Assembly (NCBI RefSeq): GCF_030013205.1
Contig: NZ_CP122648.1
Length of the DNA stretch: 64,000 bases
Direction: 5' to 3' (one strand)
DNA from: Escherichia coli
GTDB lineage: Bacteria; Pseudomonadota; Gammaproteobacteria; Enterobacterales; Enterobacteriaceae
The position numbers were made by a program. Below are positions 15,224 to 18,200 of the stretch, one piece after another; position 1 is the stretch's first letter, and each line of letters begins with the position of its first letter.

Positions 15224-18200
15224 TTTCTGTAGTCCCGGCGATAGTACATTTCTTCTTTCAGGTGACCAAAGAAGTTTTCCATTACCGCATTATCAAGGCA
15301 GTTGCCCTTGCGCGACATGCTCTGCACTAACCCTCTGTCCGCCAGGGCGGACTGATAACTTTTTATCCGGTAATGCCATCCTTGATCACTGTGGAGCAGC
15401 GGTTTCTCCCCTTCAGCAAGGCTTTCCAGCCCCTTATTTAACATCCGCTTCACCAGCTCCTCTGTAGGCCTGCAGGCCGTTTCCCATGCCACGATTTCCC
15501 CGTTAAACAAATCAAGTATCGGGGAAAGGTACAGTTTTTGTCCGCCAGCCCTGAATTCGGTGATATCTGTCACCCATTTCTCACAGGGAGCTTCCGCTTT
15601 GAACTGCCGCTGAAGGATATTTTCTGCAGCGAGTCCCATATTTCCCCGATAAGACCGGTATTTCTTCAGGCGCACAGGAGACTTCAGGCCGAGCTGTTGC
15701 ATCAGTTTTCGCACTGTTTTGCCACTGAACTTAAGACCTCTTTTCTGAAGCTCACAATGGATCCGCCGGTACCCATAACATCCCCGGTGTTCATGGAAGA
15801 TGGAGGCTATGAGCTGTTTCACATCAGCATACTTGTCCTTAGCCTTCTGCAGTGACAGCTGGTAGTACAGCGTGCTTCTGGCCAGCCCTGCAGCCTTTAA
15901 CAGGTCAGACTGGCAGTGTCCGCACCTCAGGCTCCGGATGACTTTCGTTTTTTCTCCAGCTCCTGGCGCTTTTTTTCCAGGAGATGCTCCTGCATGGCTT
16001 TCAGATATGCATTTTCTGCGCGAAGATAACGCAGCTCATTCTTCATCTCTTCCGGCGTCATGTTTGCCTCGTTTTCATGGGTATCATCAGAACGGGTCAT
16101 GCTTTTCTCCTTCCTGCGCCTGATAAAGGCCTCATTACCAGATTTGCGGTAGCCTTTTATCCAGTTTTTAACCGTGTTGTGGCTGGGAATGTTAAACCGG
16201 GCAGCTACCCGGGGTAGAGACTCAGAATGCCCGAGAGCATAAAGAACCACGCAAAGTTTATCTTCAGGAGAATAGCTACGCTTGTGTCTGCAATCCAGTG
16301 CCCGAGGACCGTGAAGAAGAAAAAGATTAATCCAGTGTGAGAGGCTGGTGTGAGAAAGTTGAAAGAGTTTTGCCGTAGAAATGATGCCTGCATGACCGGC
16401 CAGGTAATGATTTACAGCGGCAAGTTTTACTTCAAATGAATGTTTCATAAACTGCACCTTCAGATGTCAGATTGTGTCCAACATTTGGGGTGCAGTTCAG
16501 TAAACGCCTTATCCGGCCTACAAGATCCAAAGAAATCAGTAGATTGCAACACACGTTGTAGGCCTGATAAGCGTAGCGCATCAGGCAATTTCTCGTTGGT
16601 CATCACTTTGGAAATCAAACTTTACGATTAACGCTTCTCCCAGCCGTCCTGTTGTGCCGTAAACCCCAATGCCTGCATAAACGCCGTCATCACGCCGCGA
16701 TCTTCCACGCCAGCATCCACCATCCACCAATATGAAACGCCAGGATTGTTACGCAAAACCTCTTCCAGCAGATATTGCCCCACACCGCGACGGCGGGTGA
16801 CTTCCCTCACACGCAGGGAATCCAGTGCCCCCTCGGTGCCGCTTAAGGTTACCCGCACGGCCGCGAGAAGGCGCTCGTTAAAACGCGCGGCGTAGATACG
16901 GTGGTTATCGTCAACCTGTAAAGAGGAAGGGGAATACTCCGGCCAGATCTTTTGCAGGTCAATCCGGTCCTGGTCGCTAAAGTTTTCTAATCGAATGATG
17001 GTCAGCTTCATGGGGAACCCGTGTAAATCACAAAAGTGGAACCAGTGTAGCGAAATAATTTAATCGGAGGCTTTCTCTTTTTTATTTCTTTTGGCAGGTG
17101 ATTAATTTTTTAACAGCAATAATTACAAAGTTAAAACATTATAGAATGAAAAATACCCAGCATAATCCCCTGAATGATAGTGAATTATTCCGCCCTTTAT
17201 GCCGTTATTTTATGCTGACAACGGCGCTTTTTTCTGTTTATCTATCAATAAATTCAGAATATTATCTGTTCTTAATCGACTGAAAAATAGGGATTTTAAT
17301 CGCTATCATCACAAAATACTGCGCTAAACCCTTAATCAGACAGGCAAAAACAGTGCAGTATAAAAAAAGAACAGTCTGATTTGTTAACACATAAGAACAA
17401 AGCAACACAACATCACGAATGGGGATTTTTGACTATGAAACGGAATGCGAAAACTATCATCGCAGGGATGATTGCACTGGCAATTTCACACACCGCTATG
17501 GCTGATGATATTAAAGTCGCCGTTGTCGGCGCGATGTCCGGCCCGATTGCCCAGTGGGGCGATATGGAATTTAACGGCGCGCGTCAGGCGATTAAAGACA
17601 TTAATGCCAAAGGGGGAATTAAAGGCGATAAGCTGGTTGGCGTGGAATATGACGACGCCTGCGACCCGAAACAAGCCGTTGCGGTCGCCAACAAAATCGT
17701 TAACGACGGCATTAAATACGTTATTGGGCACCTGTGTTCCTCCTCTACCCAACCTGCATCAGATATCTATGAAGACGAAGGTATTCTGATGATCTCGCCG
17801 GGAGCGACCAACCCGGAGCTGACCCAACGCGGTTATCAACACATCATGCGTACTGCCGGGCTGGACTCTTCCCAGGGGCCAACGGCGGCAAAATACATTC
17901 TTGAGACGGTGAAGCCCCAGCGCATCGCCATCATTCACGACAAACAACAGTATGGCGAAGGGCTGGCACGTTCGGTGCAGGACGGGCTGAAAGCGGCTAA
18001 CGCCAACGTCGTCTTCTTCGACGGCATTACCGCTGGAGAGAAAGATTTTTCCGCGCTGATCGCCCGCCTGAAAAAAGAAAACATCGACTTCGTTTACTAC
18101 GGTGGTTACTACCCGGAAATGGGGCAGATGCTGCGCCAGGCCCGTTCTGTCGGCCTGAAAACCCAATTTATGGGGCCGGAAGGTGTGGGTAATGCGTCGC

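What the first reader, a model, noticed from the sequence alone, without database searches (positions are those of the whole stretch)
15927..15975. Programmed -1 ribosomal frameshift site in the IS transposase
The orfA 3' end contains the slippery heptamer A-AAA-AAG (minus strand, ~15965..15972), and orfB is open in the -1 frame from this point; this is the classic IS3-family mechanism for making the OrfAB transposase.
Basis: partly seen in the sequence, partly recalled or inferred. Interest (0 to 1): 0.25.

Follow-up and report, generated by a model that had tools for sequence, protein, structure and literature searches.

The report
IS1397 transposase -1 frameshift site
This is the ordinary, already catalogued ribosome-slippage site (A-AAA-AAG) that lets the E. 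coli insertion sequence IS1397 make its full transposase from two overlapping genes; the element is IS1397, not IS150, and its slip site lies 27 bases downstream of where IS150 and most relatives have theirs.

Summary
On the minus strand, orfA (16448..15927) reads CTG GAA AAA AAG, so A-AAA-AAG (15975..15969) is in the X-XXY-YYZ register. The -1 frame is open from 16035 to the orfB stop at 15100.

The element is a complete 1432-bp IS (15068..16499) with TG...CA inverted repeats and a GTAA target duplication, inserted in the loop of a REP palindrome between livJ and panM. It is 100% identical to RefSeq copies annotated [quoted passage not shown]. The product I built by a -1 slip at this heptamer is an exact NCBI protein.

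It is not IS150: the OrfAB proteins are 41.7% identical and the DNA shows no meaningful similarity.

An in-register A-AAA-AAN occurs in 75 of 80 distant relatives and in all 7 IS1397-clade members. Sharma et al. 2014 already list IS1397 orfA as a "safely inferred" -1 frameshift case.

One side result: IS150 and 59 relatives share a heptamer at "YLKK" followed by a covarying 10-bp stem. The IS1397 clade lost both and carries the heptamer 9 codons further 3', with GGAG 11 nt upstream and only a statistically unremarkable hairpin.

Verdict: real, known, low interest.

The parts
15068..16499 (-). Complete IS1397 copy, 1432 bp (IS3 family, IS150 group)
   Evidence: 100% identical over 1432 bp to copies annotated 'IS3-like element IS1397 family transposase'. 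Terminal repeats are found only at these two places in the window. Full-length copies occur in 1707 of 5426 complete E. coli genomes.
16475..16499 (-). Left terminal inverted repeat (TGAACTGCACCCCAAATGTTGGACA)
   Evidence: It matches the right end at 21 of the first 25 positions and begins with 5'-TG.
15068..15092 (+). Right terminal inverted repeat (TGAACTGAACCCCAAAACCTGGACA as read inward on the + strand; the element ends ...GTTCA-3' on its own strand)
15064..15067 (+). Target-site duplication GTAA, copy 1, inside the REP half GCCGGATGCGGCGTAA
   Evidence: The empty site ...GCCGGATGCGGCGTAAACGCCTTATCCGGC... is found in strain VCSW7.
16500..16503 (+). Target-site duplication GTAA, copy 2, followed by the REP half ACGCCTTATCCGGC
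15927..16448 (-). orfA (173 aa from ATG 16448; HTH DNA-binding protein), stop TGA at 15929..15927
   Evidence: Pfam HTH_28, HTH_Tnp_1, HTH_29, HTH_23. The start corresponds to the RefSeq CDS start.
15987..15990 (-). Shine-Dalgarno-like GGAG, 11 nt 5' of the heptamer (candidate upstream stimulator)
   Evidence: Sequence. It lies within the 6-17 nt rule of PMC4066793. Present at the same spacing in 6 of 7 clade members (sequences) and 37 of 59 relatives. Its function is inferred.
15969..15975 (-). Slippery heptamer A-AAA-AAG in the orfA register (part of an A7 run, 15976..15970)
   Evidence: Conserved. The fused product equals an NCBI protein.
15100..15969 (-). orfB part of OrfAB in the -1 frame (HTH_21 + rve DDE integrase core), stop at 15102..15100. 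OrfAB = 16448..15969 joined to 15969..15100, 449 aa
   Evidence: Pfam rve, rve_2, HTH_21. NF033516 transpos_IS3: 387 bits, profile positions 1-369 in one stretch across the junction. Exact match in NCBI.
15927..16035 (-). orfA / -1-frame overlap (109 nt), the window in which the shift must occur
   Evidence: In relatives L084 and L085 the window is only 43 and 40 nt and begins 3 nt before the heptamer.
15928..15965 (-). Candidate downstream hairpin CAGG-AG-CUGGAGA[11-nt loop]UC-A-UCCGG-AG-CCUG, starting 4 nt after the heptamer, -12.4 kcal/mol
   Evidence: Not distinctive: 25% of arbitrary positions in the IS have an equally good one. No covariation support in the clade.
15996..16002 (-). Position homologous to the IS150-group heptamer, here G-AAA-GCC (codons CTG AAA GCC, 'LKA'), not slippery
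   Evidence: Alignment A1. OrfA C-termini of clade members read YLKA/YLKG against YLKK in outgroups.

Best explanation
The site is the programmed -1 ribosomal frameshift signal of insertion sequence IS1397 (IS3 family, IS150 group). Ribosomes translating orfA mostly continue to the TGA at 15929..15927 and make the 173-aa HTH protein OrfA. A fraction slip back one base when the single E. coli tRNA-Lys species occupies AAA (P site) and AAG (A site) of A-AAA-AAG (15975..15969). They re-pair on AAA-AAA and continue with GCG CCA GGA... in the -1 frame. This gives the 449-aa OrfAB transposase: OrfA's HTH and coiled-coil region fused to the HTH_21 and DDE (rve) catalytic domain. The likely stimulators are an SD-like GGAG 11 nt upstream, pairing with the 16S rRNA 3' end, and perhaps a modest hairpin beginning 4 nt downstream. 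Shown here: the register, the open frames, nucleotide-level conservation of the heptamer, continuity of the fused protein with the IS3 transposase profile, and identity to annotated IS1397 copies. Inferred: that slippage is ribosomal, its efficiency, and the role of GGAG and the hairpin. The site in the IS1397 clade is a derived arrangement. The ancestral IS150-type cassette (heptamer at 'YLKK', 6-nt spacer, 10-bp stem closing a 28-46-nt A-rich loop) has been lost. A new heptamer 27 nt downstream, in what used to be the loop region, has taken over.
For: Register and frames. The first start codon in the -1 frame is GTG at 15822, 147 nt after the heptamer, yet tblastn relatives align from residue 8 after the heptamer onward, so that stretch is translated as part of a fusion. 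The fused product matches NF033516 (IS3 family transposase) over profile positions 1-369 in one stretch, 387 bits against a cut-off of 160. Domains: OrfA HTH; OrfB HTH_21 + rve. Identical RefSeq copies carry a two-piece CDS noted 'programmed frameshift'. The exact 449-aa sequence with junction LLEKK|APGAG is in NCBI as IS1397 family transposase. Conservation: an in-register A-AAA-AAG/A/C lies in the overlap of 75 of 80 relatives at 50-58% OrfB identity and in 7 of 7 IS1397-clade members at 53-59% OrfA identity. In two of these a -1-frame stop directly precedes the heptamer, confining the shift to 40-43 nt. Literature: PMC4066793 Table S4 lists cluster A_AAA_AAG_5 = IS1397 orfA, with SD 'Y', structure 'Y', and -1 PRF 'safely inferred'. 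Relocation: alignment A1; stem statistics of 95.9% cells paired, 4 pairs with compensatory changes, slid controls 16-52%; IS150 itself has the same cassette; the NJ tree places the IS1397 clade inside IS150-type relatives.
Against: There is no direct evidence here that the fusion protein is made by ribosomal slippage. The one source I could read calls it inferred, and the primary IS1397 papers were not available. The downstream hairpin is not better than background, is not supported by covariation, and starts only 3 nt after the motif, closer than the usual 5-8 nt. The fold of the wider region has z = -0.69. GGAG encodes conserved Gln/Met-Glu residues, so its conservation may be protein-level. 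The A run is 7 long, so an RNA-polymerase contribution cannot be excluded.
Confidence: 0.88

Rival explanations
1. Transcriptional slippage: RNA polymerase stutters on the A7 run (15976..15970) and inserts one extra A. A subpopulation of mRNAs then encodes OrfAB in a single frame, giving the same protein sequence as -1 ribosomal slippage.
For: The run is 7 A long in all 7 IS1397-clade members, against 6 in most relatives. In the IS3-family element IS1447, seven A after an upstream stem-loop sufficed for transcriptional slippage (PMC6211511). A small GGAG-CAU-CUCC hairpin can form just upstream (sequence; inference).
Against: Efficient slippage is generally reported for runs of 9 or more (statements quoted). 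The motif is conserved specifically as A-AAA-AAG in the 0-frame register, which matters for tRNA re-pairing but not for polymerase slippage. Most relatives have only A6. PMC4066793 classes IS1397 as -1 PRF.
Confidence: 0.07
2. No recoding: OrfA and OrfB are made separately, with OrfB starting at GTG 15822 or by coupling, and the heptamer is a by-product of a lysine-rich coding region.
For: GTG at 15822 coincides with the start of the HTH_21 match. In clade relatives gene callers start orfB at a GTG overlapping the orfA stop. Lys-rich, A-rich sequence is common here, and there is a second A6 run at 15953..15948 out of register.
Against: The -1 frame is conserved as protein from right after the heptamer with no start codon for 147 nt. 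The fusion aligns continuously to the IS3 transposase profile. The heptamer's identity and register are conserved across 50-60%-identity relatives, where synonymous Lys codons (AAG AAA, AAG AAG) would otherwise be expected.
Confidence: 0.03
3. A decayed element: the orfA/orfB split is an inactivating frameshift mutation in a once single transposase gene.
For: Two adjacent ORFs in different frames are what a pseudogene would also look like.
Against: The same split, at the same motif, is found in 75 of 80 relatives from several phyla. 828 records have copies at 99% identity or more, with up to 40 places per genome. This insertion has intact inverted repeats and a perfect target duplication, and is present in only 30 of 5426 genomes, so it is recent.
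Confidence: 0.02

Closest known systems
IS1397 (IS3 family, IS150 group; E. coli; inserts into REP/BIME palindromic units)
   Same: 1432 bp, 100% identical to annotated IS1397 copies. Same OrfAB protein. Sits in the loop of a REP palindrome with a 4-bp duplication, matching the published target preference (PMC1525189). The A_AAA_AAG motif with SD and hairpin is listed for IS1397 orfA in PMC4066793 Table S4.
   Different: Nothing in the element itself differs. Only the insertion site (livJ-panM intergenic REP) is lineage-specific: 30 of 5426 genomes, mostly porcine ETEC/O139 strains.
IS150 frameshift cassette (Vogele et al. 1991, cited in PMC4066793): A-AAA-AAG + 6-nt spacer + stem-loop
   Same: Same heptamer sequence, same orfA/orfB -1 organisation, same domain architecture, same IS group. 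OrfAB proteins are 41.7% identical end to end.
   Different: The heptamer is at a different codon: IS150 at 'YLKK', IS1397 nine codons later at 'LEKK'. The 10-bp stem GCCUUAGCUC/GAGCUAAGGC of IS150, shared with covariation by 59 relatives, has no counterpart in IS1397. IS1397 has an upstream GGAG; Table S4 gives SD 'N' for IS150 and 'Y' for IS1397.
E. coli dnaX and IS911 -1 frameshift signals (A-AAA-AAG with upstream SD-like element plus downstream hairpin)
   Same: Same heptamer. An SD-like GGAG lies about 10-11 nt upstream (IS1397: 11 nt). The general model of SD 'push' plus structure 'pull' is described in PMC4066793.
   Different: dnaX shifting yields a shorter product, and its hairpin is strong and experimentally proven. 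The IS1397 hairpin is weak and unproven. This comparison rests partly on my own knowledge of dnaX and IS911.
IS1447-type IS3 elements using transcriptional slippage on A runs (PMC6211511)
   Same: IS3-family orfA/orfB, with an A run at the orfA 3' end. Seven A can suffice in that system.
   Different: IS1447 needs a +1 change and has A9T. IS1397 needs -1 and keeps the tRNA-compatible A-AAA-AAG register.

Membership tests
IS3 family insertion sequence | Two consecutive ORFs, with orfB in the -1 frame relative to orfA and partly overlapping it | tested here: met
   orfA 16448..15927. The -1 frame is open 16035..15100, giving a 109-nt overlap.
IS3 family insertion sequence | OrfA with HTH; OrfB with DDE (rve) catalytic core; the whole protein scores above the family cut-off | tested here: met
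   Pfam HTH_28/HTH_Tnp_1 in OrfA; HTH_21 + rve + rve_2 in OrfB. NF033516 transpos_IS3: 387 bits against a cut-off of 160, profile 1-369/369.
IS3 family insertion sequence | Imperfect terminal inverted repeats ending 5'-TG...CA-3', a 3-4 bp target duplication, and a length of about 1.2-1.55 kb | tested here: met
   TGAACTG(C/A)ACCCCAAA...TGGACA at both ends. GTAA duplicated relative to the empty site. Length 1432 bp.
IS1397 (the named element) | Near-identity in DNA and transposase to the reference element. The naming threshold (about 95% aa / 90% nt) is from my knowledge of ISfinder rules. | tested here: met
   100% over 1432 bp to copies annotated IS1397 family transposase. The exact OrfAB is in NCBI under that name. 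The ISfinder reference sequence itself was not available to compare.
IS1397 (the named element) | Insertion into the loop of a REP/palindromic unit | tested here: met
   The empty site GCCGGATGCGGCG-TAA-ACGCCTTATCCGGC is split at GTAA. The target preference is stated in PMC1525189.
   OrfAB 41.7% identical. blastn finds only 25-nt and 11-nt chance matches. Same group, different element.
Programmed -1 ribosomal frameshift signal | X-XXY-YYZ heptamer in the 0-frame register inside the overlap | tested here: met
   GA[A AAA AAG] at 15975..15969.
Programmed -1 ribosomal frameshift signal | Heptamer conserved at nucleotide level and in register among diverged homologues | tested here: met
   75 of 80 relatives. 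7 of 7 clade members at the same position.
Programmed -1 ribosomal frameshift signal | Upstream SD-like stimulator 6-17 nt before the motif (rule of PMC4066793) | tested here: met
   GGAG at 15990..15987, 11 nt before the heptamer. Present in 6 of 7 clade members. This shows presence only; activity is not testable here.
Programmed -1 ribosomal frameshift signal | Downstream stimulatory RNA structure starting 4-10 nt after the motif | tested here: inconclusive
   A 38-nt hairpin of -12.4 kcal/mol meets the published empirical rules. However, 25% of arbitrary positions in the IS do as well, z-scores range from -0.8 to -3.1 depending on the segment, and there is no covariation. No Rfam family matches.
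Programmed -1 ribosomal frameshift signal | Demonstrated trans-frame protein and measured efficiency | not testable with these tools
   Needs reporter assays or mass spectrometry. The literature I could read says 'safely inferred'.
IS150-type frameshift cassette | Heptamer at the 'YLKK' codons followed by a 6-nt spacer and a 10-bp stem GCCUUAgUUC/GAAcUAAGGC | tested here: not met
   At those columns IS1397 has G-AAA-GCC, and neither arm pairs. IS1397 is the unpaired row.

The most novel reading that the evidence does not exclude
In the IS1397 clade (IS1397 plus at least six uncultured or enterobacterial relatives) the recoding site has migrated 27 nt (9 codons) 3' of the ancestral IS150-group position. 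The old heptamer decayed to G-AAA-GCC and the deeply conserved, covarying 10-bp stem-loop was abandoned. A new A-AAA-AAG arose in the former A-rich loop, with a GGAG at the same 11-nt upstream spacing as at the old site. This would be a natural example of turnover of a frameshift signal. It also lengthens the OrfA-frame (coiled-coil) segment carried by OrfAB by nine residues. I found no description of this, but the primary IS1397 papers were not readable.
Probability: 0.7. Interest if true: 0.3.

Novelty: already known. Interest (0 to 1): 0.1.

Why it matters
For annotating this window it settles three points. The two ORFs are one functional transposase gene with a programmed frameshift, not a pseudogene. 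The mobile element is an intact, probably active IS1397. It is a recent, lineage-specific insertion into a REP between livJ and panM. Beyond that it adds little, because the motif is already annotated by RefSeq and listed in a published catalogue. The one point of wider interest is comparative. Within a single IS group, the slippery site and its stimulators can be replaced by a new site a few codons away while the two-protein strategy is kept. That bears on how robust and evolvable recoding signals are, and it warns against transferring frameshift coordinates between homologous IS by alignment.

Tried and rejected
1. Folding the whole region 15840-15995 gave z = -0.69 and no convincing structure.

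2. The hairpin CUCCUGG[A7GCG]CCAGGAG, which encloses the heptamer in its loop, looked intriguing. Its 5' arm would lie inside the ribosome at the moment of slippage, and the arms are not conserved in the clade (sequences), so I treat it as coincidence.

3. RNAalifold on the seven clade sequences gave a weak consensus of -8.8 kcal/mol with a positive covariation term. Counting pairs for the IS1397 hairpin on that alignment showed the outer helix is invariant and the inner helix is broken in most sequences.

4. The Rfam scan found no frameshift-element family, only a chance snoRNA hit at E = 4.8.

5. The primary IS1397 and ISKpn1 papers (PMC94167, PMC95333, PMC169884) are not held. I therefore could not check whether OrfAB or an engineered fused frame was tested experimentally. 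My recollection that such constructs exist is unverified.

6. The second A run GAG AAA AAA CGA (15953..15948) is out of register for X-XXY-YYZ, so I rejected it as an alternative site.

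Full report
**What is at the coordinates**

Reading the minus strand, the 3' end of a 173-codon ORF reads ...CAG GAG CAT CTC CTG GAA AAA AAG CGC CAG GAG CTG GAG AAA AAA CGA AAG TCA TCC GGA GCC TGA (translation).
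- AAAAAAG lies at 15975..15969, and the frame is GA[A AAA AAG]. This is the canonical X-XXY-YYZ register.
Only the approximate coordinates in the text are a few bases off.
- The -1 frame is open from 16035 to the stop at 15102..15100.
- The first possible start codon in that frame is GTG at 15822.
- The motif alone is common: 25 in the window against 15 expected. My rough estimate for an in-register copy inside the 109-nt overlap is below 1% by chance.

**What the element is**

The ORFs belong to a 1432-bp element at 15068..16499 on the minus strand.
- It has terminal repeats TGAACTG(C/A)ACCCCAAA...TGGACA, found nowhere else in the window.
- It is 100% identical to copies annotated "IS3-like element IS1397 family transposase". 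Those copies carry a two-piece CDS noted "programmed frameshift", with the same start and end as my reconstruction.
- OrfA has HTH domains; the -1 frame product has HTH_21, rve and rve_2.
- The conceptual fusion made by slipping at the heptamer matches NCBIfam NF033516 (IS3 family transposase) over the whole profile in one stretch across the junction, 387 bits against a cut-off of 160.
- That exact 449-aa sequence is an NCBI protein named IS1397 family transposase.
- The element is not IS150. Against IS150 of K-12, the OrfAB proteins are 41.7% identical and the DNA shows no meaningful similarity.

**Context**

The IS interrupts a REP palindrome in the livJ-panM intergenic region.
- Joining the flanks with one copy of GTAA gives a sequence found uninterrupted in 3748 complete E. 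coli genomes.
- In strain VCSW7 the empty site reads GCCGGATGCGGCGTAAACGCCTTATCCGGC. The insertion is therefore in the loop of the palindrome, with a 4-bp duplication.
- This fits the published REP specificity of IS1397 (PMC1525189).
- The occupied junction is present in only 30 of 5426 genomes, mostly porcine ETEC/O139:H1 strains.
- Full-length IS1397 occurs in 1707 genomes.
- The copy is thus intact and recently inserted.

**Comparative evidence for the frameshift**

A scan of one genome per species returned 80 loci encoding OrfB relatives at 50-58% identity, from Bacillota, Proteobacteria and Bacteroidota.
- In 75 of them the orfA/-1-frame overlap contains an in-register A-AAA-AAG, sometimes A-AAA-AAA and once A-AAA-AAC. 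The five exceptions are truncated or degenerate.
- tblastn alignments start at residue 8 after the IS1397 heptamer. The -1 frame is therefore under protein selection immediately after the site, although it has no start codon for 147 nt.
- An OrfA search found six closer relatives at 53-59% OrfA identity. I fetched their DNA.
- All six have GG-A-AAA-AAG-CGC-C at the same position and register as IS1397.
- In L084 and L085 a TGA in the -1 frame directly precedes the heptamer. This confines the shift to 43 and 40 nt, in which this is the only in-register slippery motif.

**Literature**

Sharma et al. 2014 (PMC4066793) list cluster A_AAA_AAG_5 = orfA of IS1397 (Fam IS3 / grp IS150). It has 59 genes, a conserved SD-like element ("Y") and a conserved structure ("Y"). 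A footnote says -1 PRF is "safely inferred" for this cluster rather than demonstrated. The primary IS1397 papers were not available. The finding is therefore already known and already annotated, though apparently without direct measurement in any source I could read.

**Stimulators**

*Upstream element.* GGAG at 15990..15987 lies 11 nt before the heptamer, inside the 6-17-nt rule of PMC4066793.
- The same tetramer at the same spacing is present in 6 of 7 clade members and in 37 of 59 non-redundant relatives.
- It encodes conserved residues, however, so I cannot separate RNA-level from protein-level constraint.

*Downstream structure.* The best hairpin is CAGG-AG-CUGGAGA[11 nt]UC-A-UCCGG-AG-CCUG (15965..15928, -12.4 kcal/mol).
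- It formally satisfies the published rules.
- Applying the same rules at 178 arbitrary positions in the IS gives a hairpin at least as stable in 25% of cases.
- z-scores range from -0.8 to -3.1 depending on the segment.
- The clade alignment gives no covariation support.
- No Rfam family matches.
- I therefore call the downstream structure inconclusive.

**A side result: the site has moved**

IS150 itself and essentially all 59 relatives share one cassette...ENAYLKK with TA-CTT-A-AAA-AAG, a 6-nt spacer, then GCCUUAgUUC ... GAAcUAAGGC closing a 28-46-nt A-rich loop.
- That stem is paired in 95.9% of cells. Four pairs show compensatory changes (27 cells). Slid controls give 16-52%.
- IS1397 aligns to these sequences without net indels. 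At the heptamer columns it has CTG AAA GCC ("LKA"), at the 5'-arm columns GAGCATCTCC, and at the 3'-arm columns AGCCTGAGGT. None of these pair.
- Its own heptamer sits 27 nt further 3'.
- All clade members read YLKA/YLKG ... L(L/E)EKK, whereas more distant OrfA homologues read YLKK.
- A neighbour-joining tree of fused proteins places the IS1397 clade (63-66% identity) inside the IS150-type relatives with IS150 as outgroup. The arrangement is therefore derived.
- L016 carries two in-register A-AAA-AAG motifs 24 nt apart. This shows how easily a second site arises in the Lys-rich loop.
- One consequence, by inference, is that OrfAB of IS1397 carries nine more OrfA-frame residues of the coiled-coil region than IS150-type OrfAB.

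**Rival explanations**

- *Transcriptional slippage on the A7 run* would give the same protein. It has a precedent with seven A in IS1447 (PMC6211511). The conserved tRNA-compatible register and the A6 runs of most relatives argue for the ribosome. I give this rival about 7%.
- *Separate initiation of OrfB, or a decayed gene,* is contradicted by the start-less conserved -1 frame, the continuous profile match, the conservation of the split across phyla, and the many identical copies.

**Verdict**

It is already known and of low interest (0.1). The relocation of the signal within the IS150 group is a modest comparative observation worth a note.

Noticed in passing
window 15068..15132 (IS positions 1368-1432): About half of all complete E. 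coli genomes, including K-12 MG1655, lack IS1397 but carry a single 65-bp stretch 96.9% identical to its right end. It is unannotated and may be a solo-end remnant of an old copy.
   Followed up: no
window 15052..15067 and 16500..16571: The insertion lies in a BIME-like cluster. The split REP (GCCGGATGCGGCG/ACGCCTTATCCGGC) is followed by a second inverted REP pair at 16508-16523 / 16556-16571. This particular livJ-panM insertion is found in only 30 of 5426 genomes, mostly porcine ETEC/O139:H1 strains.
   Followed up: partly
L083:1440-1500 and 2880-2920; L085; L086: The IS1397-clade relatives also sit in hairpin loops. L085 and L086 are in REP-like palindromes. L083 is in a terminator-like hairpin AAAACGGCTCC-TGAA-GGAGCCGTTTTTTT downstream of an ammonium transporter gene. 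Palindrome-loop targeting therefore seems to be a trait of the whole clade.
   Followed up: partly
L016:1953-1983: A Litchfieldia salsa relative has two in-register A-AAA-AAG heptamers 24 nt apart. One is at the usual IS150-type position and one is just after the 5' arm of the stem. This may be an intermediate state for relocation of the slip site.
   Followed up: no
window 15960..15983 (minus strand): CUCCUGG and CCAGGAG flank the A7GCG stretch and can form a 7-bp hairpin with the slippery sequence in its loop. It is not conserved in clade relatives, so it is probably coincidental.
   Followed up: partly
L083-L089 orfA 3' ends versus window 15927..15941: In all six clade relatives orfA ends at a TAG overlapping a GTG (G-TAG-TG), 36-39 nt after the heptamer, and gene callers start orfB there. 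IS1397 has GTC ATC instead, so its orfA runs 12 nt further and lacks that potential coupled start.
   Followed up: no
window 13832..14992 and 17381..18544: Two paralogous periplasmic branched-chain amino-acid binding protein genes (livJ-like and livK-like) flank the region, with panM (16628..17011, minus strand) between them. This is ordinary E. coli gene order.
   Followed up: no
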